In this document: piece after piece, positions 11,369 through 46,029 of the stretch | Position numbering within the stretch: position 1 is the stretch's first letter | How the letters are laid out: every line of letters starts with the position of its first letter | Origin: Actinomycetota bacterium | Lineage (GTDB): Bacteria > Actinomycetota > Actinomycetes > Actinomycetales > Microbacteriaceae | Direction: 5' to 3' | DNA: 64,000 bases | NCBI GenBank assembly: GCA_037033365.1 | Contig: JAZBLS010000001.1 | Coordinates: 18,937 to 82,936 of the forward strand | Notes under the pieces: model-generated | What the model saw: the letters and a program-made list of their open reading frames with translations, nothing else | The model's database searches: none | Told to the model about the DNA's origin: nothing | Position numbers and translations under genes: made by a program

Positions 11369-12388
11369 ATGAGTACCCAACCTTCCACCCAGCCCACCGA
11401 AACGGCTCTGATCCGAGGCGCCGGTTCATCAGCGGCAGCGGCCCGCACCCCGCTCTCCCGCCTGCTCTCCGGATCCGGCGGCGCGTTGCTCGGCTTCATC
11501 CTTCTCTTCGCGATCTTCTCGCTCACAACACCCCGTTTTTTCTCGGTCAACAATCTGGTCAACGTCGTCGACCAGGTGACTGTGATCGGAGTGCTCGCGA
11601 TCGGCGCGACGGCCGTCATCATCACCGGAGGTATCGATCTGTCGGTCGGCTCGGTGCTCGCGCTGAGCACGATGGTGCTCGGCTGGCTCTCCCATGACGG
11701 AGGCGTTCCGATGTGGGTCGCGATGCTCGCGGCAGTCGCCGTCGGTGCACTCGCCGGACTCCTCAACGGCCTGGGGGTGTCAATCGCCGGTCTGCCCCCT
11801 TTCATCGCCACGCTGGCGATGATGTCGATCTGCCGCGGTTTGGCGAACCTCGTCACCGACGGCCAGCAGATCGTGGGATATCCCGAGTGGTTCTATTCCC
11901 TCGCCTCGACCCGCTACCTCGGATTCTTCTCCGTCACGGCGATCGTGTTCATCCTCCTGGCCGTTGTGGCGACCGTCGTCCTCAAGTACCGGCCAGCAGG
12001 CCGAAAGGTCTACGCGATCGGCGGAAGTGCCGAGGTCGCTCGTCTCGCGGGGATCAAGGTCCGGAGCGTCACGACGTGGGTCTACGTCGCAGCCGGAGCG
12101 CTCGCCGGAGTCGGAGCAATCATCCTCGCATCGCGTCTCGACTCCTCGCAGCCGAGCGCAGGAACAGGGTATGAGCTCGACGTCATCGCCGCAGTCGTCA
12201 TCGGCGGCGCCAGCCTCAGCGGCGGTTCGGGACGCATAGCAGGCACCGTCATCGGCGTTCTGATCATCGGGGTGCTGCGCAACGGGCTCAACCTCCTCGG
12301 TGTATCGCCGTTCCTTCAGCAGATCGTCATCGGACTCGTCATCGCCGGTGCCGTCATCGTCGACGTACTGCGTCGTCGTTCGCACTGA
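11369..12388 (+). CDS. Sugar ABC transporter permease (RbsC family)
   Basis: GGIDLSVG, GRKVYAIGGSAEVARLAGI, GYELDVIAAVVIGGASL. Confidence 0.92.
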   Translation: MSTQPSTQPTETALIRGAGSSAAAARTPLSRLLSGSGGALLGFILLFAIFSLTTPRFFSVNNLVNVVDQVTVIGVLAIGATAVIITGGIDLSVGSVLALSTMVLGWLSHDGGVPMWVAMLAAVAVGALAGLLNGLGVSIAGLPPFIATLAMMSICRGLANLVTDGQQIVGYPEWFYSLASTRYLGFFSVTAIVFILLAVVATVVLKYRPAGRKVYAIGGSAEVARLAGIKVRSVTTWVYVAAGALAGVGAIILASRLDSSQPSAGTGYELDVIAAVVIGGASLSGGSGRIAGTVIGVLIIGVLRNGLNLLGVSPFLQQIVIGLVIAGAVIVDVLRRRSH

Positions 12389-35853: not shown

Positions 35854-36306
35854 TGTACCGTATTTGCTTCCCAAAACGGGTACACGGGTACGCAAGAGAA
35901 ACCGCAGTTCAGGGGACGGAAAAAGCGCGATGCACACGAGCGGTGCGTACCGTACTTGAGTACGCGAAAATTGAGATACGGTACGCAGGGATGGGCCTCT
36001 CCGCCTGTGTTTCCAAGGATCTAAGAGGGAAGAAGGGAGACTTGTACCCGATGTACCACCGATTTCGAGAAACTCCACACATGCGCGCATGCGCACGCAC
36101 ACGCATACAGTTCCTTCGAAAATCTGGTACATACGGTACGCGGTGGGTAAGGTCCCGGTGAGCGGGTAATTCGGATCGCGATGGCCTGGTACGCAAACGG
36201 GTACGCAATCCTCGCTGCGCGTGAAGCGAGGGAGCCAAAAAGCACTTCTTATCTGGCATTTTTATGGCTTCGGTCTGGCATGCGGTGCGTACCCGATCGG
36301 CGGTAC
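35854..36306. repeat. GTAC-rich iteron-like array A (origin-like)
   Basis: 15 GTAC in about 450 bp; TGTACC pair (36043, 36052) facing GGTAC pair (36126, 36135); several GGTACGC(A) copies in both orientations. Confidence 0.7.
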
Positions 36307-36538: not shown

Positions 36539-37174
36539 TTACTCGCCCTCGGAAGCCTCGCTCTCCTCGATCAAGTTGACCACGGGTGCTGCGTCCAGAC
36601 CGATGGCGAGCCACGTGTGCGGACTGATGGGCTCGCCGTGGATCGTGAGTCCTGCTTCGTGTGTAGCCATGAAGACATAGGTTCGCTGTGGCTCCCAGGC
36701 GGGCGGGATCGCGGCGACCACATCATGTAACCCTGGCAGGAGGCCAGTTCTTTCGTCGAACTGCCAGGTCGGATACCTGCGAAAGCGGCCGATCTTGAAG
36801 AAGTGCAGCTGTTTGTTCTGAGCGAGTCGTCTCACTTGTCGGAGTCCGACGTCCAAGAAGTATGCTGTTTCGTCGTCGCTAAATGAGTCGATGATGGCTT
36901 CAACTTGGGCGCGGTACTCTGGGCGCATTCTTCCGGCAGGATGAGCCGGACTCGCTTCGAAAAGAACGTCCGCACCTTTTTCGGAGATGAAGCCGGCGAT
37001 CGTAAGCACGAGCGACTTGACCAACTTCCAGTCGCGACCGTGCGCTGCCGCAGTGCCGATCAGACGCTCGAGAGCAGCCTTCGTTGATTCGACCTCAGTG
37101 GGTGTCTTGGAGCTGTCTTCGACGGGATTATCGCGCGTCGTCGGCGCGTCCACGGTTCCGTCAGTCGATGTCAT
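36539..37174 (-). CDS. Rv2175c/MbcA-Xre-like DNA-binding protein
   Basis: HTH-like ETAYFLDVGLRQVRRL, YPTWQF, C-terminal SPHTWLAIG..A.PVVNLI. Confidence 0.65.
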   Translation of the reverse strand: MTSTDGTVDAPTTRDNPVEDSSKTPTEVESTKAALERLIGTAAAHGRDWKLVKSLVLTIAGFISEKGADVLFEASPAHPAGRMRPEYRAQVEAIIDSFSDDETAYFLDVGLRQVRRLAQNKQLHFFKIGRFRRYPTWQFDERTGLLPGLHDVVAAIPPAWEPQRTYVFMATHEAGLTIHGEPISPHTWLAIGLDAAPVVNLIEESEASEGE

Positions 37175-37997
37175 GTTGGTAACCCTCCAGCAGGATCGCG
37201 ACGTGCAACGGATCGCACCCTTGAGACAGCCATCTCGTAGGCGTTTGGCTTTGACGATTGATCTTCAGGTGCCAGGTGGGTGTTGTGAAAAAGCGGTGTA
37301 TCCGCGGCAGCGTCCAATCGGAAGGCATCGAAGACACGATCAGGTTGATGCCGTTGACGACCGATTTGCCTTCTTCTGTTGAAAACTGCCACATCGGATA
37401 GCGCATCTCGTTCGGAGAGAGCGCGACGGCGTGCAGGAATCCGGCGCGCGTGACGCGGTCGAGATAACGGCGAGACGTGCGCAGGCGGATGACGGCTTGC
37501 TCTGGAGTCAGCGACGCCTTCATCGCAGCGCGCTTTGTTGTGTCGCTGTCCGCGGCCGCGGGTTCGCCGGCCATCGCGCCGATGCGCTCGTCTCGTGCCA
37601 CGAGCGCGAGCACGCGCCTGCCTGCTTGGAGGCTTTTGGGGACGCCTACTTCGTCACGGACATATCCGAGTCGACGCCATACAACGATCACCGCCCTCCA
37701 GAAGCGATGCCGCGCCAGATCCAAGTCCTTTCGCCCCCAGTCTTCGGCTAAGCGCGAAGGGAGGCCATCGGTGTCGGGGAAGAGATGCCTGAAGACATCA
37801 CGAACCGTTGGTCCCTCGTTGTAGCGACGGCGATGATGAACTATGTACAAGCCGGCCGCCAATCCCCACTGCGCCGCTGACCGGCCGGTCGTGAGCTCCG
37901 TGAAGAGGGCGCGCCATGCCAATGGGGCCGGGCGTCTCGCGGATGTCCACCAGTTTTCAGGACTCAAGTACCCAGAGTTCGCCATGGCAGTGGCCAT
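37161..37997 (-). CDS. Rv2175c/MbcA-Xre-like DNA-binding protein with extra N-terminal winged-helix-like domain
   Basis: GPTVRDVF (LexA-DBD-like), YPMWQF, FFTTP...TPTRWLSQG.DP.HV.ILL. Confidence 0.65.
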   Translation of the reverse strand: MATAMANSGYLSPENWWTSARRPAPLAWRALFTELTTGRSAAQWGLAAGLYIVHHRRRYNEGPTVRDVFRHLFPDTDGLPSRLAEDWGRKDLDLARHRFWRAVIVVWRRLGYVRDEVGVPKSLQAGRRVLALVARDERIGAMAGEPAAADSDTTKRAAMKASLTPEQAVIRLRTSRRYLDRVTRAGFLHAVALSPNEMRYPMWQFSTEEGKSVVNGINLIVSSMPSDWTLPRIHRFFTTPTWHLKINRQSQTPTRWLSQGCDPLHVAILLEGYQHDID

Positions 37998-39562: not shown

Positions 39563-39931
39563 GACCGTGTACCTTCACGCACCTGGAGGTCACCAGGTAC
39601 GCGGGGCGGCGGAGAAAGCCCGGGCCAGAGCGCAAAGCTGGAAATTAGCGTCGGATTCATCGAAATCAGCAATTTCGGCCCTGATCAGGATTTTTCAAAG
39701 ATGTACCTGCTGTACCTGCCGCTACGAACAAACCTATATACGAGAGCAGCATGTAGGTGCTCGGTTGGCGTGGGTGGGAGAGGGGTCAGCCTCCTTCTCT
39801 CTTACTAGATTGTCCAGGTACACCAGGTACAGGCCTTAGCAGGCCGTCCGAGAGCTGGGAGATCACGCGGACTTCGATGTAACTGGAGGTGTGCCTGGAC
39901 CCCTCGATTCGGCAGTTACACACCAGGTACA
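39563..39931. repeat. Convergent octamer iteron array B (origin-like)
   Basis: TGTACCTG at 39702 and 39711 facing CAGGTACA at 39815, 39824, 39924; CAGGTACG at 39594; TATATA in core. Confidence 0.72.
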
Positions 39932-40150
39932 CCGGCTCACTCTCCCGACCTTCGAGCGCGGCTACACCCCAGCCGGGAAATTGGGCGCTCGCCGCAGATA
40001 TATCCGACGTGCTGTGTACAGTCGTGAGCAAGCCTGAATGACACTAAAAGGGCAGGGCCACCGAGGGTCCGACCATTTGGATACGCCAAGCAACCGCTAA
40101 CGGGTTCGGCTACGAGGTCCTCTTGGAAGTTTGACTTCCAAGGGAGATCC

Positions 40151-40372
40151 ATGCCTCTTTTCACCCCCGCGAGCACTAGTCTGCTGGACTCGCTGATCAC
40201 GCCGGCAACACTCGCCGCTCGCCTCGGCACGAAAAGTCTGAGCGAATGGCGCATCACCGGCCGTGGTCCGAAGTTCATCCGCATCGGCCGCAGCCCGCGC
40301 TACCGGCCTGAGGCCGTCGACGAGTGGTTGCTCGCGCAGGAGCACGCGAGCACCTCCGAGGAAGCTGCCTGA
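40151..40372 (+). CDS. xis: Excisionase / AlpA-MerR-like HTH protein
   Basis: LITPATLAARLG...WRITGRGPKFIRIGRSPRYRPEAVDEWL; TGATG overlap with integrase. Confidence 0.85.
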   Translation: MPLFTPASTSLLDSLITPATLAARLGTKSLSEWRITGRGPKFIRIGRSPRYRPEAVDEWLLAQEHASTSEEAA

Positions 40373-41511
40373 TGGGTAGCGCGTACTCGTACGACACGAA
40401 GAACGGCAAGCGCTGGGAAGCGCGTTATCGCAAGCCCGACGGCAAGACCGCGCGTAAGGGTGGCTTTGCGCGCAAGCGGGATGCTGAGGCATACATCACC
40501 TCGGTGGAGTCGGCGAAGCTTCAAGGCGCGTACATCGCACCGGGGGAGTCTCGAGTCACCGTCGGAGAACTGGGTACTTCCTGGCTGACCGCCCACGCGA
40601 TCGCTGTCAAGCCGTCCACCTTCCATAGCGACGAGAGTGCGTGGCGGGTCCACGTCGAGCCGGCCTGGGGGCGACGCCGTGTCGGCACGATCCGGCACAC
40701 GGAGGTCGCGGCGTGGATTGCCGAGTTGAGTTCTGAGCGCTCCGCGACCACCGTGAAGCGGTGCCATGGCGTTCTCGCATCGATCCTTGACGGGGCCGTG
40801 CGCGATCGCCGGCTTCAGTCGAATCCCGCACGCGAGGTGAAGACCCCGCGCAAGGTCCGGAAGCAGAGGGCCTACCTCACGCACCAGCAGGTTGAACGAA
40901 TCGCAACGGCATCTCATTATCCGGATCTCGTGCGGTTCCTCGCCTACACGGGGCTTCGGTGGGGCGAGGCGACGGGCCTCACAGTAGCGAACGTGGATGT
41001 ATCGCGGCGCCGACTGAACATTTCGTCGAACGCCGTCATCGTGAACGGACATGTGATCGTCGGTACGCCGAAGACGCACGAGCGGCGCACCGTCGTCTAT
41101 CCGGCCTTTCTCGATGCTGCGATGATTCATGCGATCACGCTCAAGCGTCCGGATGAGCTGGTCTTCCCTGCCGATACCGGTGGCTACCTCCGGCCGGGCA
41201 ACTCCGTGTCCGGATGGTTCGCTGGAGCGTGCAAGCGCGCCCGACTCGCGGATGCCTCCGATGTTGCCGAGGCCAGGGCTCGGGGCGAGGGGATTCGGGC
41301 GGTTATGCCGCGCGTGACGCCGCACGATCTGCGGCACACTGCTGCATCGCTCGCGATCAGCGCCGGTGCCAACGTCAAGGCGGTTCAGCGCATGCTTGGG
41401 CATGCGAGCGCGGCGATGACGCTCGACACGTACGCAGACCTATTCGATGACGATCTTGACGATGTCGCCGCGGCGCTGGAGGCATCGCGCACGATTGCGC
41501 TTGGACGGTAG
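40372..41511 (+). CDS. int: Tyrosine recombinase / integrase
   Basis: N-terminal arm-binding WEARYR..GGF..K..A; catalytic TGLRWGE, K (PKT), HDLRH, GH, TLDTYADL. Confidence 0.95.
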   Translation: MGSAYSYDTKNGKRWEARYRKPDGKTARKGGFARKRDAEAYITSVESAKLQGAYIAPGESRVTVGELGTSWLTAHAIAVKPSTFHSDESAWRVHVEPAWGRRRVGTIRHTEVAAWIAELSSERSATTVKRCHGVLASILDGAVRDRRLQSNPAREVKTPRKVRKQRAYLTHQQVERIATASHYPDLVRFLAYTGLRWGEATGLTVANVDVSRRRLNISSNAVIVNGHVIVGTPKTHERRTVVYPAFLDAAMIHAITLKRPDELVFPADTGGYLRPGNSVSGWFAGACKRARLADASDVAEARARGEGIRAVMPRVTPHDLRHTAASLAISAGANVKAVQRMLGHASAAMTLDTYADLFDDDLDDVAAALEASRTIALGR

Positions 41512-41764
41512 CCGGAAGTCGGCCACTTCTGTTCCGGGTTAGTCGGTCAAGCCGTTCAGGGAACGAGAAAGGGGCGAACTGTGTACCGCAGCGACATGCA
41601 ATGACTTCCGATGAATCATCGGCGCTGAGATCCAGACACTTCGCTCGGCGGCGCCCGGCGACACAGATGAACGATGCTAGATCGAATCGCCCAGGTCGAA
41701 CATGCACAGGTGGGCATGAGACGGGCTTTGCCCCCCTCGTCGACGATTCTGCAATGATCGGGGC

Positions 41765-43345
41765 ATGAGCCCAGCGATCTATCCCGGCATCCGATTTCCT
41801 GACCGTGCCGAAGCTTTGGAGGATTTCGAGGGATACCGCGTATTCCTCGAGCCCTGGAATCCAATTGCTGATGCTCTGCGCCCCCGGTGGGAAGCGGCCG
41901 CGCTCCGAGGTTCCTCGCACATCTTCGCGATCCACGGGCCGCAGGGCGCCGGGAAGACGCTACTCACCAGGAAGCTTGCGGGGGACTTCGAAACTACGAA
42001 GCTCGATCCGCATGGGCTTGAGCCTGATGCAAGCAACTTTTGGCACCGTGTCTCTGGAGGAAGCGCGCTTGAAGCGGGCACCATCCGTCATGCCACCGCC
42101 ATGACCGATTTCTTGACCATTCCAAACGTCAAGACCTGGCAGGGCGAAGTGGTGAGCTTCATCTCCGGACAGCGAGCGAACGCGCGTGTTCTGCTTGCGG
42201 ATAACGCAGAGCGCACCTATTTCCGGCAGGGCCTCGTCGAGATGACTGACATGGAGTACCTCTCTGCGGAGGGCCAGCCCGGGCTGAACCGCCTGGCAGC
42301 ACAACGTCTTGTCGACCAGCTGCGGACCTCGATGCGAGGAACACTTCTTGTCCTTCTAAGCAACTCAGCGGAATTCCTCAATGGTCTGCAGGATGAGGTG
42401 GAGCAGCAGCATGCCGGTTTGATGTCAGTCACTAACCTCGAGCTTCCTGGGCCACGTGACAAAGAGACGGTCATCCGGGTCAATACGAACCGGCTGAATG
42501 AGGCGTCGTACTGGGCGGCGATCGACCAAGGAACGATCGCTGATCGCGTGGCACTCAAGAGCGCGCTCAGCGGTGACACCACTTTCCCAGATTCCTTCCG
42601 CGCGGTCGACAGCGCGTCACGCAACCGAACCGGCCGCCCGGCGCTCCGAAACGTTATCTCGCTTCTAGTTCTTACGAATACTGAGGATGCGGCCGTCGAC
42701 CTATCGAGTATCGGCGCAGTGAAGCGCACCGAGGTGGATGATGCATGGCTGCGCGTTCAGGTCTTTGAGGAAGGGTGGGCTCCTCGAGAGATCGGCGATA
42801 GAGAGGCCGGACTTCTTGAGTCAGAGTGGTCGCTTCGTATCGCCGTTCTGGCACGTCCATTCGTGAGCGCACTTCTCGCAGGGCGAGAGGATCCGGCTCA
42901 GCGTGCGCAAGTCGCCGCGCTCTTGGATGAGCTGAAAACCTATCAAGGGCCAGGAACCCAGGCCTCTACGCGCGCAAACTACACGGAGCGGCTGCACAAA
43001 CACGTCGTTGAATGGATCGAACCGGACTACGACCTCGCCTCCTTCTGGGCAGCTGGTCAACACCGCTCCACCCAATACGAACCGGCGCTCGTTCAGGTGC
43101 TCCCGGGATACAACACATCCGCTAGCGGATTCCTTTCCTACCGACCCGACTTCGTGGTTAACGATTTCACGCCCTGCGCCGTGTCCGATGCCCCGGACGA
43201 GACTAACGACGCTATCCGCGCGGCTATCAGGCGGAGCGCGCACGTGTTCGAGTTCACGGCTATCGCGACAGGCGACCCGAGTCTCATGAAGTCTTACCTC
43301 GCGAGCAAGTTGCCCAACTATGTTCAGGTGACACAGGAACAGTAG
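41765..43345 (+). CDS. P-loop ATPase fused to C-terminal PD-(D/E)xK-like domain (candidate defence protein)
   Basis: GPQGAGKT Walker A, VLLADNAE Walker B-like, C-terminal YRPDFVV...VFEFTA. Confidence 0.7.
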   Translation: MSPAIYPGIRFPDRAEALEDFEGYRVFLEPWNPIADALRPRWEAAALRGSSHIFAIHGPQGAGKTLLTRKLAGDFETTKLDPHGLEPDASNFWHRVSGGSALEAGTIRHATAMTDFLTIPNVKTWQGEVVSFISGQRANARVLLADNAERTYFRQGLVEMTDMEYLSAEGQPGLNRLAAQRLVDQLRTSMRGTLLVLLSNSAEFLNGLQDEVEQQHAGLMSVTNLELPGPRDKETVIRVNTNRLNEASYWAAIDQGTIADRVALKSALSGDTTFPDSFRAVDSASRNRTGRPALRNVISLLVLTNTEDAAVDLSSIGAVKRTEVDDAWLRVQVFEEGWAPREIGDREAGLLESEWSLRIAVLARPFVSALLAGREDPAQRAQVAALLDELKTYQGPGTQASTRANYTERLHKHVVEWIEPDYDLASFWAAGQHRSTQYEPALVQVLPGYNTSASGFLSYRPDFVVNDFTPCAVSDAPDETNDAIRAAIRRSAHVFEFTAIATGDPSLMKSYLASKLPNYVQVTQEQ

Positions 43346-43740
43346 GGACTCGCCACAACTCGGGTAGCGCCCGAAGAGAGAGCACCGAGAACTCCGCGAT
43401 GTGCGTTGGTCGGGGAGCTACCAGCTCGACAACCAGCAAAGCGGGGTGTTCCGACTGCCGAACATCGGCCACACTGATGCACACTTCGTCACCCTCATAG
43501 TCACTTTTCAGGCGAACCTGAACGGCTCTACCTGCTCGGCAATACTCCTGTCGACGGAAGCGCTGACGCGCTTTTTCGTGACGAGCCGACGAAGCCGGGG
43601 GTGATCAAGTAGATGCTTCTCACAGATGACCCATGGCGCGTGCATGGTCGAGCCTGCTCGGATGGGCAGAGGAGTACCGCTATACGGGACTACAGCTGCG
43701 CTGATCGGTACCTACTGCTGCAGTCCGGCCTCGTGGGCGG

Positions 43741-44199
43741 TCAGCGACTATCGTCGCCACCGCGGCGGCCCGCCGATCCCCATCCGCGAGCAGCGACGAC
43801 TACGTCGCCGCGGTGCGTGCGCCGCTCCACGAGCGGCGGCTCGGGGGCGTTCATAACCTCTCCGAGCGTTCGGAGAGGAATGTGATCGTCGTCGAGGGTT
43901 GCGAGTTCGTGCACGTCGTCATCGAGGGCATGTAGGAGTCTCACGTCGGCGCGATGGTGAGCCTGGAGCGTGTCCTTCAAGACGATGACGGTCATTTCGC
44001 GGGCTTCGCAATATTCGCTTGTGCAGTACAGCTCGAGGCGGCCGGTGTCACTCGCGATGTCACCGTAGGAGCGCTTGACGCTCTTGTTGCCGCAGAAATA
44101 GCAGTCCAAGTAGCCGGGGCCTTCCTGCCCCTGCTCGGGTCGGTGTGCGCCCTCGCGGCGCGCCCAGGGTGCTTCGTCAGGTCCCCAACCGGTAGTCAT
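43741..44199 (-). CDS. Hypothetical protein with putative zinc ribbon
   Basis: CYFC...YCTSEYC cysteine pairs. Confidence 0.6.
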   Translation of the reverse strand: MTTGWGPDEAPWARREGAHRPEQGQEGPGYLDCYFCGNKSVKRSYGDIASDTGRLELYCTSEYCEAREMTVIVLKDTLQAHHRADVRLLHALDDDVHELATLDDDHIPLRTLGEVMNAPEPPLVERRTHRGDVVVAARGWGSAGRRGGDDSR

Positions 44200-44286
44200 G
44201 TCGTCCCCTTCGCTCGGCGTTCTCATGATCGTCTCATGACCAGCACGGCCACAAGCTCCACGGCGCGTAGTCCGCCACCGAACCGG

Positions 44287-45267
44287 CTAACCCGGCGGCT
44301 CCAGAAGGTCGACGACGTCCCGAAGACTGGGTGTAACTAATGTGTCGTAGAGCCCCGGCACCTTCGCGGTGTTGAGCAGCCCGGACCAAAACTTCTCGGT
44401 CACCACGACGTCGCAGTATGGCACGGCTACCGCCAGCGCGGTGACGTCGTTCAGGTCGTTACCCTCCCACCGCTTCTGTGGGTTCGCTTGCCGGAGATGA
44501 CGCAGCTTCATGTCGACCTGGCGTGAGGGCATGTGCGCGATGAGCCGTGTGACGTTACGCGCGTCGACGAGGTCCTCCGGTGGTACACCCAACTCTTGGG
44601 CCGCTTCGATCGCGGGCTCAAGGATGTCTTGCATTGCCGTCGCCGCCATGATGTTGGGGAGCTTGGCCTTACCCAGCTTGTGCACCCAACCGGCGATTCG
44701 GTTCTGTTCGGTGACGAACTGAGAGTCGTAGTTCAGCATGTCCTGGAAGACCAGGCGTGTGCTCTCCGGGTACCCCGCGGGGGCGAGGCCGCCGAGAATC
44801 ATCTCTTCCCACTTCGGCACCGCAACCTCATACAACTGTCGCTTCTGCTCCTCTGACAGGTTGGTCCCGTCTACTTCGTCCGGTATGGGGTAGCGGAGGG
44901 AGGGTAGGGCATGCGCGTGCGCCGCAGTTTCGCCAAAAAGCTGCAACTCGGGGAGACGCACGTTCAGGTCGAAGACCTCGATGATCGCCCTTCGGATCTC
45001 CCACGGAACGATGACGTGCGGTGGGGCGATGCGATCCATGCCGGCGAGCCGCATCATCGTCTTGGCGAGGTCGACCCGTCGTCGCCGCTCCTGAGTCTTG
45101 CCTGTCTCGATGTAGTGCGCGACGCTGAGAGGGAAGGACGCGCGACCGTCATCAGCGGCCCTCTTGAACGCCTCGAGCGAGTCGACGTGCTGAGCTCCCT
45201 GAGGGTGCCCGGTTTCGGCGCGCGCCAGATCTATCCACTTCATCTGGTCGAGGTAGATCGTCATCAT
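44287..45267 (-). CDS. PIN-like domain protein (about 326 aa)
   Basis: IYLDQMKW N-terminal Asp, HYIET, NDLNDVTALAVAVPYCDVVVTEK. Confidence 0.7.
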   Translation of the reverse strand: MMTIYLDQMKWIDLARAETGHPQGAQHVDSLEAFKRAADDGRASFPLSVAHYIETGKTQERRRRVDLAKTMMRLAGMDRIAPPHVIVPWEIRRAIIEVFDLNVRLPELQLFGETAAHAHALPSLRYPIPDEVDGTNLSEEQKRQLYEVAVPKWEEMILGGLAPAGYPESTRLVFQDMLNYDSQFVTEQNRIAGWVHKLGKAKLPNIMAATAMQDILEPAIEAAQELGVPPEDLVDARNVTRLIAHMPSRQVDMKLRHLRQANPQKRWEGNDLNDVTALAVAVPYCDVVVTEKFWSGLLNTAKVPGLYDTLVTPSLRDVVDLLEPPG

Positions 45268-45842
45268 CACGACACTCAGTCTGCCTGCACAACCTGCTTG
45301 CAGAGCGAAGCACCCGTCGAGCCGCGGGCGGTGCGACCATGAACCCTCGCCACATACATTGCGCCGTGACTCGTGTGAGTGGCCGATTCGCGCGAACCCG
45401 ATCCCGGAGTTCAACCCGTTCTTGGGTAGATCACTCGCCGTCCTCCCATGTGCCCGGATCGGTGCAACCTGAGAGTCGACCCGACAATCGTCCACGCCGC
45501 CGCGGCGCCACAGTGGCCTTCCAGGGCGGACGCGTCTAGATTATCGCGGCTGAGGGTCTACTTCGCTGCGATGAGCTCCACACTGCTTCGCTGCGGCACG
45601 AGGCCTCCGGGGAACAACTCGTCGATGGCCGGGGTGGGACTGGTTCATGCTTCCACGCGCTGCCTACGACTGACTACTTCCGGAATGGCTCATCATGGGC
45701 ATACCCCGCGGTAGCGCTATGCGGTAACGCAGCAGTAACGGAATGCATGCGGGAGCACGGGAGCTGGCGTGAGTAGATGTGAGTGACTTCCCTACATTTC
45801 CGATGGTTCGTGAGAAGGTGACAAGGCCGCGGGGTCGCGAGA

Positions 45843-45869
45843 TGGGTTCAAATCCCACCGTCACCGCCA
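45843..45869 (+). tRNA. 3' fragment of tRNA-Ser (CGA-type acceptor stem); att core, not an intact gene
   Basis: TGGGTTCAAATCCCACCGTCACCGCCA = T-arm + acceptor 3' strand + G discriminator + CCA; no matching 5' half upstream. Confidence 0.8.
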
Positions 45870-45871
45870 CC

Positions 45872-45919
45872 ACGAAGGCCCCGACTCCCGTCGATATGAC
45901 TGGGATGCGGGGCCTTCGT
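45872..45919 (+). terminator. Hairpin downstream of tRNA fragment
   Basis: ACGAAGGCCCCG / CGGGGCCTTCGT 12-bp perfect stem. Confidence 0.75.
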
Positions 45920-46029
45920 CATGTCCGACGTCGGGCGAGCGGTAACGCAGAAGTAACGATCGATCGCTATCAACTCCCTCGGCGGCCGCCCCGCTGAAGA
46001 CGTCCTCTCCGTGGTGAAGTCATGCCGGA

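What the first reader, a model, noticed from the sequence alone, without database searches (positions are those of the whole stretch)
41765..43345. Single-gene ATPase-nuclease fusion downstream of the integrase: best candidate for an undescribed anti-phage system
Seen: a 526-aa stand-alone ORF with Walker A GPQGAGKT, Walker B-like VLLADNAE, a sensor-like LLVLLSN strand, a middle region with no recognisable motif, and C-terminal RPDFVV...EFT resembling a PD-(D/E)xK site with Lys replaced by Thr. It sits between int and att. Known: that position is a hotspot for defence cargo, and NTPase + nuclease fusions are a recurring defence architecture. Inference: a novel defence protein; I do not recognise it as a named system.
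Basis: partly seen in the sequence, partly recalled or inferred. Interest (0 to 1): 0.75.

Follow-up and report, generated by a model that had tools for sequence, protein, structure and literature searches.

The report
Orphan AAA+ ATPase island gene
A real, strongly conserved but unnamed 526-aa gene beside an integrase joins an ORC/Cdc6-type ATPase to a domain unlike any solved structure; it is a credible but unproven candidate for a new single-gene defence protein, and no nuclease fold was detected.

Summary
Residues ~29-286 are an AAA+ module of the ORC/Cdc6-STAND/clamp-loader type. Residues 288-526 fold confidently (pLDDT 91) but match nothing in the PDB (best E 0.44), Pfam, PHROGs or PADLOC, and do not resemble a RecB-type PD-(D/E)xK profile (hhalign 0.4%). 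The nuclease call is therefore unsupported, although R434/Y438/E439, P461/D462, R490, E496 and Y511/K515/Y519 are invariant and look like a functional site. The gene lies between xis-int and a genuine tRNA-Ser att core. A sister element shares exactly the xis-int-ATPase block (homology ends 2 bp after the stop), followed by a variable two-gene slot. It is absent from 36 other genomes of the genus, from phages, plasmids and viral contigs. It is under purifying selection (dN/dS 0.07) and has no conserved partner. In 6 of 28 loci it sits within 5 kb of known defence genes, twice inside a DISARM-like operon and once inside a Type I R-M operon. Best reading: an autonomous ATP-switch defence or anti-mobile-element protein (~45%).

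The parts
41765..43345 (+). 526-aa ORF: AAA+ ATPase fused to a C-terminal domain of unknown fold (the finding)
   Evidence: ORF list. About 120 full-length homologs. AF2 model pLDDT 92.2, pTM 0.88. dN/dS 0.072 against the sister element.
41849..42622 (+). AAA+ module (res ~29-286): alpha/beta base plus helical lid
   Evidence: Foldseek matches ORC/Cdc6, clamp-loader and Lon AAA+ structures, E~3e-4, prob 0.96-1.00 among the top hits. Weak AAA_16 and AAA_22 hits in 28 and 27 of 33 members.
41936..41959 (+). Walker A, GPQGAGKT (res 58-65)
   Evidence: G63 and K64 invariant, T/S65.
42188..42211 (+). Walker B, VLLADNAE (res 142-149). D146 is invariant. The main clade has DNxE and the Myxococcota clade has DDxH.
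   Evidence: Strand 140-145 in the model.
42344..42364 (+). Sensor-1 strand, LLVLLSN (res 194-200), with N200 invariant
   Evidence: Strand 193-199 in the model.
42461..42499 (+). Lid-helix block KETVIRVNTNRLN (res 233-245), nearly invariant. R238 is the candidate sensor-2 or arginine-finger residue.
   Evidence: Helix 230-244 in the model.
42626..43342 (+). C-terminal half (res 288-526): six-stranded alpha/beta domain with no detectable relative outside this family
   Evidence: Model pLDDT 91.4. Best PDB Foldseek E = 0.44. No Pfam or PDB sequence hit. Never fused to another N-terminus.
43064..43321 (+). Invariant polar cluster R434, Y438, E439, P461-D462, R490, E496, Y511, K515, Y519: candidate catalytic or binding site
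   Evidence: Invariant in 28 of 28 members down to 26% identity.
40151..40372 (+). Excisionase-like HTH_17 gene (xis)
   Evidence: Pfam HTH_17 E=7e-4. 85% identical in the sister element L039.
40324..41511 (+). Tyrosine integrase
   Evidence: Phage_integrase E=7e-19. 91% identical in L039.
40078..43347 (+). Conserved xis-int-ATPase block shared with an independent sister element (84% DNA identity). Homology ends 2 bp after the ATPase stop codon.
   Evidence: blastn window against L039.
43348..45837 (.). Variable slot between the ATPase and att. It holds orf161 (43741-44226, -) and a ~326-aa ORF (44287-45267, -). The sister element has two unrelated genes here.
45838..45872 (+). att core: 3' end of tRNA-Ser(CGA) (T-arm, acceptor strand, CCA). 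It is the third copy in a tandem island array.
   Evidence: Sequence. The intact tRNA-Ser lies at contig position 3278-3368, upstream of the window, and exact 25-nt copies lie at contig position 11981 and window 45845. An identical 35-bp core ends L039.

Best explanation
The gene encodes an autonomous, horizontally mobile ATP-switch protein that most likely acts in defence against phages or other invading DNA. The N-terminal ORC/Cdc6-STAND-type AAA+ module binds ATP and probably oligomerises on a nucleic-acid or protein cue; this step is inferred from how that clade works. Through the highly conserved lid it then controls the C-terminal alpha/beta domain. That domain's invariant Arg/Tyr/Glu/Asp/Lys cluster carries out the effector step, and its chemistry is unknown. 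In this genome the gene rides with xis-int at the att-proximal end of a tRNA-Ser integrative element. Shown: gene reality, domain architecture, invariant sites, accessory and mobile distribution, lack of a partner gene, and co-location with defence genes in a minority of loci. Inferred: the defence function, oligomerisation, and coupling between the two halves.
For: It is a rare family with a fixed architecture: 143 clusters among 1.84e9 proteins, all ~530 aa, and the C-terminal domain is never found elsewhere. The ATPase motifs are intact and the AAA+ fold is confirmed. Purifying selection acts on both halves, with dN/dS 0.064 and 0.081. It is present in 1 of 61 related genomes and in none of the 36 other genomes of the same genus. 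Its GC3 is 0.67, against 0.84-0.91 in flanking core genes. No neighbour family is shared by more than 3 of 28 loci. Strong defence genes lie within 5 kb in 6 of 28 loci: hsdM-hsdS-X-ATPase-hsdR in L013, an adjacent SIR2-type PDC-S65 in L010, a DruE/DrmA-like helicase, ATPase, DrmD/DpdE-like helicase and DrmMI-like methylase in L023 and L024, Type IIG R-M in L009, and DpdE in L006. It recurs next to tRNAs or integrases (window, L039, L002, L007, L010, L032, L042, L043). ORC/Cdc6-clade AAA+ proteins are known cores of defence systems, such as BrxC, BrxD and MtsA/DUF499 (PMC12839542; bioRxiv 10.64898/2026.09.23.753747).
Against: There are no functional data. It matches no PADLOC v2 model. About two thirds of the 32 loci examined show neither a recognised defence gene nor an integrase nearby; many are plain housekeeping neighbourhoods, some next to a tRNA. 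I could not compute a matched background rate, so 6 of 28 is suggestive only. In this element lineage the gene is as conserved as int and forms one block with it, which also fits an element-maintenance role. The effector chemistry is unknown.
Confidence: 0.45

Rival explanations
1. One reading: the C-terminal region is a PD-(D/E)xK nuclease whose Lys has moved (E439...P461-D462...E496-x-T...K515), so the protein is an ATP-gated DNase.
For: E439, P461-D462, E496 and K515/Y519 are invariant in 28 of 28 members. The order helix(E) - strand(PD) - strand(ExT) - helix(K...Y) fits the motif order of the superfamily. Migrated lysines are known in this superfamily (my own knowledge, not tested here).
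Against: A confident model (pLDDT 91.4) finds no nuclease among the top 50 PDB hits, with best E 0.44 and prob <0.1. There are no Pfam or PDB sequence hits for 18 C-terminal halves. hhalign against a PDDEXK_1 profile built here gives 0.4% probability and the motifs are not in register. The D- and E-bearing strands are 34 residues apart and joined through a helix, not the usual hairpin. The canonical Lys position is Thr, Ala, Cys or His.
Confidence: 0.2
2. It is an element-maintenance factor of the integrative element, for example a replication initiator or loader, or an accessory ATPase for excision and integration, rather than a defence gene.
For: The AAA+ module is of the initiator/clamp-loader type, and 21 of 33 members weakly match a PHROG annotated as a DnaA-like initiator. 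xis-int-ATPase form one conserved block in two independent elements.
Against: The arrays are absent from the sister element, whose ATPase is 90% identical and which carries different repeats. They are also absent from all the other loci, so they do not co-vary with this protein. Most homologs are solitary, intact genes with no integrase. Some are embedded in Type I R-M or DISARM-like operons. No winged-helix DNA-binding domain was detected.
Confidence: 0.2
3. It is not autonomous. It is an ORC/Cdc6-like loader or scaffold that works with methyltransferase and helicase partners, as BrxC or MtsA do, and solitary copies borrow host R-M components.
For: It is embedded between a DruE/DrmA-like helicase and a DrmD/DpdE-like helicase plus DrmMI-like methylase in L023 and L024, and between hsdS and hsdR in L013. 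MtsA and BrxC are ORC/Cdc6-clade AAA+ proteins that load or activate methyltransferases.
Against: No partner is conserved across loci. The window and most other loci have no methyltransferase or helicase nearby. There is no match to any PADLOC model, which includes BREX, DISARM and Dpd components. It is about half the size of BrxC or MtsA and lacks their wHTH modules.
Confidence: 0.12

Closest known systems
ORC/Cdc6-STAND assemblage of AAA+ ATPases (Pfam AAA_16, AAA_22, NB-ARC/NACHT; structures such as archaeal Orc1/Cdc6 2qby and 1w5s, and eukaryotic Orc4)
   Same: It has Walker A, Walker B, a sensor-1 Asn, a five-stranded base and a helical lid. Foldseek probability is 0.96-1.00 among the top hits over ~250-300 residues. 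Most members hit AAA_16 or AAA_22 weakly.
   Different: The window's protein falls below every Pfam curated cut-off. No winged-helix or repeat sensor domain follows the lid; instead there is a 240-aa alpha/beta domain of unknown fold. Walker B is D-N-x-E in the main clade. Extra invariant blocks (N91-x-W93-H94, KETVIRVNTNRLN) have no counterpart that I know of.
BrxC/PglY, BrxD and DUF499/MtsA: ORC/Cdc6-clade AAA+ cores of BREX and BREX-related (MANTIS) defence systems
   Same: They have the same AAA+ clade and a defence-island lifestyle. Two homologs sit in a helicase, ATPase, helicase, methylase operon that is analogous in composition.
   Different: There is no match to any PADLOC model, which includes the BREX components. 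It is about half the length, lacks the wHTH/alpha+beta/wHTH triad, is usually solitary, and has a C-terminal domain unique to this family.
AAA+ ATPase plus C-terminal restriction-endonuclease-like domain proteins (for example Pfam AAA_14 + DUF4143), recalled from my own knowledge
   Different: AAA_14 matched only 1 of 33 members, at E 0.028, and DUF4143 matched none. No endonuclease fold was detected.
Int-proximal defence hotspots of integrative elements and satellites (P4-like satellites and P2-like prophages; PMC9122126)
   Same: It is an accessory gene or genes placed between the integrase and the att site, with a variable slot whose content differs between sister elements.
   Different: Here the ATPase itself is not the variable part. 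It is conserved together with xis-int, and the variable slot begins after its stop codon. The element is not a recognisable phage or satellite, and there are no hits in the phage or viral collections.

Membership tests
AAA+ ATPase (ORC/Cdc6-STAND/clamp-loader type) | Walker A GxxxxGK[ST] | tested here: met
   GPQGAGKT is present; G63 and K64 are invariant and position 65 is T or S.
AAA+ ATPase (ORC/Cdc6-STAND/clamp-loader type) | Walker B acidic residue at the end of a hydrophobic strand | tested here: met
   D146 is invariant at the end of strand 140-145. The next residue is N (main clade, with E149 at +3) or D (Myxococcota clade).
AAA+ ATPase (ORC/Cdc6-STAND/clamp-loader type) | Sensor-1 polar residue at the end of strand 4, and a helical lid after strand 5 | tested here: met
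   N200 is invariant after strand 193-199. Helices 230-286 follow strand 220-224. Foldseek matches ORC/Cdc6 and clamp loaders with prob 0.96-1.00.
AAA+ ATPase (ORC/Cdc6-STAND/clamp-loader type) | Score above the curated cut-off of a Pfam AAA+ family | tested here: not met
   For the window's protein AAA_16 scores 18.8 bits against a cut-off of 32.6, and AAA_22 scores 15.7 against 27. The best E among 33 members is 1.3e-6.
ORC/Cdc6 proper | Helix-extension-helix insert after strand 2, and a winged-helix DNA-binding domain after the lid | tested here: inconclusive
   The model shows two helices (92-98, 104-112) before strand 114-118 and one after it. I could not inspect the coordinates. The region after the lid has no wHTH-like PDB match.
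PD-(D/E)xK nuclease superfamily | Catalytic motif (P)D...(D/E)xK | tested here: not met
   P461-D462 and E496 are invariant, but the K position is T498 (A, C or H in others). An invariant K515 lies on the next helix.
PD-(D/E)xK nuclease superfamily | Restriction-endonuclease-like alpha-beta-beta-beta-alpha-beta fold | tested here: not met
   Foldseek of the confident C-terminal model against 350,542 PDB chains gives best E 0.44, with no nuclease among the top 50. Caveat: only the PDB was searched, and the coordinates could not be inspected.
PD-(D/E)xK nuclease superfamily | Profile similarity to a member family (PDDEXK_1, RecB/AddB type) | tested here: not met
   hhalign probability is 0.4% and 0.3%. 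The reference profile shows the expected D, DxK and QxxxY motifs.
Named anti-phage defence systems (PADLOC-DB v2.0.0) | Match to any system-component HMM | tested here: not met
   There were 0 families at E<=0.1. Newer catalogues could not be searched.
Defence-island gene (guilt by association) | Homologs enriched next to known defence genes | tested here: inconclusive
   6 of 28 loci have a strong PADLOC hit within 5 kb, and in 4 of them the hit is adjacent or the gene is embedded. No matched background was computed.
Cargo of a tRNA-targeting integrative element | Lies between the integrase and a tRNA-derived att repeat, and is absent from close relatives | tested here: met
   int is at 40324-41511 and the att core at 45838-45872. 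The intact tRNA-Ser and a second copy lie upstream in the same contig. 0 of the 36 other genomes in the genus carry the gene.

The most novel reading that the evidence does not exclude
This is the founding member of an undescribed single-gene immunity family. A compact ORC/Cdc6-STAND-type ATP switch directly controls an effector domain with a fold not represented in the PDB. That domain's invariant Arg/Tyr/Glu/Asp/Lys site may perform a new effector chemistry. The gene is portable enough to act alone, or to be plugged into Type I R-M and DISARM-like operons.
Probability: 0.35. Interest if true: 0.7.

Novelty: new variant of a known kind. Interest (0 to 1): 0.55.

Why it matters
If the defence reading holds, this adds a compact (1.6 kb) single-gene system with a structurally new effector domain to the immune repertoire. 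It is found from Actinomycetota to Myxococcota and Pseudomonas. It would also give a minimal model for how ORC/Cdc6-type ATP switches, the still poorly understood cores of BREX and MANTIS, are coupled to an output. Even if the function proves different, the C-terminal domain is a confidently predicted fold with an invariant polar site and no known relative, which makes it a clear target for structural and enzymatic work.

Tried and rejected
1. Conserved partner gene: the 161-aa and 402-aa neighbours do not match the neighbours in Cellulomonas. All-vs-all BLAST of 339 neighbour ORFs found no family in more than 3 of 28 loci. Rejected.
2. Nuclease fold: PDB Foldseek on the C-terminal model, Pfam on 18 C-terminal halves, a PDB profile search, and hhalign against PDDEXK_1 were all negative.
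3. Short proteins matching only residues 425-522: they have no Pfam domain, and many begin inside the family's conserved LESEW block. I take them to be gene fragments, not a stand-alone domain.
4. C-terminal domain fused to other N-termini: none found.
5. Phage, plasmid or viral carriage: none found.
6. ATPase as the cognate initiator of the GGTACA arrays: the arrays are missing from the sister element and from all other loci.
7. tRNA or Rfam RNA inside the window near the gene: none at gathering thresholds. Only the tRNA 3' fragment is present. A mir-278 'hit' (E 0.04) is just the terminator hairpin.
8. Promoter and terminator scan: nothing above shuffle expectation.
9. Simple tandem-island model: the orientation of int relative to the att copy differs from that in paralogous elements (upstream element A and relative G011), where int abuts the tRNA convergently. 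However, the sister element L039 reproduces the window's order, so it is genuine. The left boundary of the element was not resolved.
10. PD-T4-6, AriA and mad3/mad8 hits among neighbours were treated as generic kinase or ABC-ATPase cross-hits and were not counted as defence genes.
Full report
**Observation.** Walker A (GPQGAGKT), Walker B (VLLADNAE), the LLVLLSN strand, RPDFVV and EFT are all present. Composition marks window ~36-46 kb as a lower-GC stretch (0.60-0.64 against 0.65-0.70).

**Family.** Curated libraries give only sub-threshold P-loop hits (AAA_16 E=0.0024, 18.8 bits against a cut-off of 32.6). PADLOC gives nothing and NCBIfam nothing meaningful. The word-indexed search of 5.8 billion proteins returned about 120 relatives, mostly full-length (~530 aa), at 33-90% identity. 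Every named one is called 'hypothetical protein'; examples are Cellulomonas iranensis, Kocuria, Metapseudomonas otitidis, Pseudomonas, Asaia and Sandaracinaceae. The exhaustive phmmer scan of 1.84 billion cluster representatives found only 143 hits at E<=1e-3, all family members or fragments. A search restricted to residues 290-526 recovered only the same architecture. So this is a rare family with a fixed architecture, spread across several phyla.

**Conserved sites.** Two alignments, of 33 and 28 members reaching 26% identity, share these invariant positions:
- P12, R14, E16, Y24 and W31 in an N-terminal extension
- G63 and K64 (Walker A), N91, D146 (Walker B), R187, N200 (sensor 1)
- E234, R238, N240, N242, R243, N245, Y249, W250 and D254 in the lid
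- R288, G290, W338 and E354
- in the last 100 residues: R434, Y438, E439, P461, D462, R490, E496, Y511, K515 and Y519

The residue after the Walker B Asp is Asn with Glu at +3 in the main clade, but Asp with His at +3 in the Myxococcota clade. T498, the position where a PD-(D/E)xK lysine would sit, is variable.

**Structure.** AlphaFold2 with the 33-sequence alignment gave pLDDT 92.2 and pTM 0.88. Foldseek against the PDB and BFVD matched only the first ~250-300 residues, to ORC/Cdc6, clamp-loader, Lon and related AAA+ modules (E about 3e-4, probability 0.96-1.00 among the top hits). Member-wise Pfam scans point the same way: AAA_16 in 28 of 33 members, AAA_22 in 27, NB-ARC in 14 and NACHT in 12. 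PHROGs adds weak hits annotated as DnaA-like initiator and clamp loader.

I modelled residues 288-526 separately, using 18 homologous segments taken from fetched loci. The model is confident (pLDDT 91.4, pTM 0.89) and shows six strands and about nine helices. Its best PDB match has E=0.44 and probability below 0.1. The top 50 are P-loop GTPases and phosphorylases at noise level, with no nuclease among them. Pfam scans of the 18 segments and PDB profile searches were empty.

The motif order E439...D462...E496...K515-xxx-Y519 reminded me of the RecB/Cas4 pattern D...ExK...QxxxY. To test that, I built a PDDEXK_1 profile from 18 AdnAB/RecB-type domains of related genomes. It shows the expected invariant D, DxK and QxxxY. 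hhalign against the family's C-terminus gave 0.4% and 0.3% probability, with the motifs out of register. In addition, the D- and E-bearing strands are joined through a helix and 34 residues rather than a hairpin.

The nuclease reading is therefore unsupported. It is not excluded, because I could not inspect the coordinates or search AFDB, and the invariant acidic and basic cluster clearly marks a functional site.

**Is it a working gene?** Against the sister element (90% protein identity), dN/dS is 0.072. The N-terminal half gives 0.064 and the C-terminal half 0.081, the same range as the integrase at 0.059. GC3 is 0.67, against 0.84-0.91 in the flanking core genes. In Cellulomonas its GC3 signal is likewise far below that of its neighbours. 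Both observations indicate foreign origin.

**Local context.** xis (HTH_17) and a tyrosine integrase lie immediately upstream. ARAGORN finds no tRNA in the window. However, 45843-45872 reads as the T-arm, 3' acceptor strand and CCA of a tRNA. The contig upstream of the window holds an intact tRNA-Ser(CGA) at contig position 3278-3368. Exact 25-nt copies of its 3' end lie at contig position 11981 and at window 45845. Copies 2 and 3 share 79 bp at 94% identity, including the native terminator hairpin. This is a tandem array of islands in one tRNA-Ser gene.

An independent metagenome contig (L039) carries a sister element. Homology runs from 73 bp upstream of xis to 2 bp past the ATPase stop codon (window 40078-43347, 84% DNA identity). 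It then disappears and resumes only at an identical 35-bp att core. Between the ATPase and att, the window has orf161 and a ~326-aa ORF, whereas L039 has a 199-aa ORF and an XRE-peptidase_M78 gene.

But in this lineage the ATPase is part of the conserved xis-int block, and the hotspot starts after it. The gene is absent from all 36 other genomes of the genus and from 24 further genomes of the order. It is also absent from 50,697 phage records, 72,556 plasmid records and 2.9 million viral contigs.

**Contexts elsewhere.** I examined 32 non-redundant loci.
- No neighbour family recurs in more than 3 of 28 loci, and those that do are integrases, ABC ATPases and Ser/Thr kinases. The gene has no obligate partner.
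- I scanned 277 neighbour ORFs within +/-5 kb against PADLOC and resolved the strong hits individually.
- Cryomorpha (L013): hsdM, hsdS, an unknown 412-aa gene, the ATPase, then hsdR overlapping the ATPase stop codon.
- Anaeromyxobacter (L010): a SIR2-type PDC-S65 (E=1e-185) directly downstream, and a tRNA-Met 320 bp upstream.
- Two Polyangiaceae (L023, L024): a DruE/DrmA-like 1769-aa helicase, the ATPase, a DrmD/DpdE-like SNF2 helicase (E=6e-182), then a DrmMI-like methyltransferase.
- L009: a Type IIG R-M fragment 1.8 kb away, next to a copy of the ATPase that is split across three reading frames and is probably a pseudogene.
- Georgenia (L006): DpdE (E=8e-229) 4.3 kb away, with a WYL regulator in between.
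- In total, 6 of 28 loci have an unambiguous defence gene within 5 kb, and in four of them it is adjacent or the ATPase is embedded in the operon.
- Integrases are nearby in the window, L039, L032 and L043. tRNAs or att cores are nearby in the window, L039, L002, L007, L010, L032 and L042.
- The remaining loci sit among ordinary chromosomal genes with no recognised defence gene or integrase nearby, for example rho/rpmE in Cellulomonas, ychF in Kocuria and fumC in Asaia.
- I could not compute a matched background rate, so the association is suggestive, not proven.

**Rival: element replication.** An earlier first-stage note (e1-5225263) pointed to origin-like GTAC arrays and the lack of a replicase in this element. 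That makes an initiator-clade AAA+ protein next to int a natural suspect. The arrays are real: four convergent GGTACA-N3-GGTACA pairs at 36043, 36126, 39702 and 39817, against 0.06 expected. But they are absent from the sister element, whose ATPase is 90% identical and which carries a different repeat set. They are also absent from every other locus. Together with the solitary and operon-embedded homologs, this argues against a cognate-initiator role, though a sequence-independent maintenance role is not excluded.

**Comparison with known systems.** ORC/Cdc6-clade AAA+ ATPases are established cores of BREX (BrxC, BrxD) and BREX-related systems (DUF499/MtsA of MANTIS). There they load or activate a methyltransferase and scaffold the complex (PMC12839542; bioRxiv 10.64898/2026.09.23.753747). 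The present family shares the ATPase clade and, in Polyangiaceae, a comparable operon composition. It differs in matching no PADLOC model, being about half the size, lacking the wHTH modules, being usually solitary, and having a C-terminal domain unique to itself. I therefore file it as working like an ATP-switch defence NTPase, not as a member of any named family.

**Verdict.** I put about 45% on an autonomous ATP-gated defence or anti-mobile-element protein with an effector of unknown chemistry. I put about 20% on an element-maintenance role, and about 12% on a non-autonomous loader for modification-based systems. Independently of those, I put about 20% on the C-terminal site being a divergent nuclease. 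Novelty: a new variant of a known kind (NTPase-plus-effector single-gene module) carrying a domain with no detectable relatives.

Noticed in passing
window 45838-45921; contig upstream of the window (L038 3278-3368 and 11980-12058): Three copies of the tRNA-Ser(CGA) 3' end lie in one contig: the intact tRNA plus two fragments, the latter two sharing 79 bp including the terminator hairpin. This is a tandem array of at least two integrative elements. A 54%-identical integrase paralog (L038 4144-5232, -) abuts the intact tRNA.
   Followed up: partly
window 36043-36140 and 39702-39831: There are two arrays of convergent GGTACA-N3-GGTACA pairs, 4 sites against 0.06 expected by chance. They are absent from the sister element, which instead has three copies of GCGTCGCTkCGCTCCTT spaced ~65-70 bp apart (L039 2500-2716). 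They are probably binding sites for one of the element's variable HTH proteins.
   Followed up: partly
window 44287-45267 (-) and 43741-44226 (-): The 402-aa ORF is really ~326 aa, since homologs align from Met77. It belongs to a widespread, unnamed actinobacterial family (about 200 hits; Mycobacterium, Nocardia, Arthrobacter, Microbacterium). The adjacent 161-aa ORF has a CxxC...CxxxxC zinc-ribbon-like motif. Together they fill the variable slot, and neither matches PADLOC or Pfam convincingly.
   Followed up: partly
L023 3294-18443 and L024 2993-12995: In these Polyangiaceae loci the operon order is a DruE/DrmA-like helicase (1769 aa), the ATPase-family member, a DrmD/DpdE-like SNF2 helicase, then a DrmMI-like methyltransferase. 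This may be an undescribed DISARM/BREX-related variant using this family as its ORC-like ATPase.
   Followed up: partly
L013 4389-5624: An unknown 412-aa gene with no Pfam hit is co-embedded with the ATPase homolog between hsdS and hsdR of a Type I R-M operon in a Cryomorpha ignava MAG.
   Followed up: no
L009 10001-11573: The homolog in an uncultured Actinomycetota MAG is split across three reading frames and is probably a pseudogene. It lies next to a Type IIG R-M fragment and a ResIII-domain ORF.
   Followed up: no
L001 9059-13345: In Cellulomonas iranensis the homolog and two unknown ORFs (156 aa and ~242-285 aa) form a ~4-kb islet inserted between rho and rpmE. The homolog's GC3 signal is far below that of its neighbours.
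   Followed up: no
window 36539-37997 (-): Two overlapping paralogous HTH_17 proteins (211 and 278 aa) share a YPxWQF motif. A 27-35% identical counterpart exists in the sister element (L039 ~979-1389).
   Followed up: no
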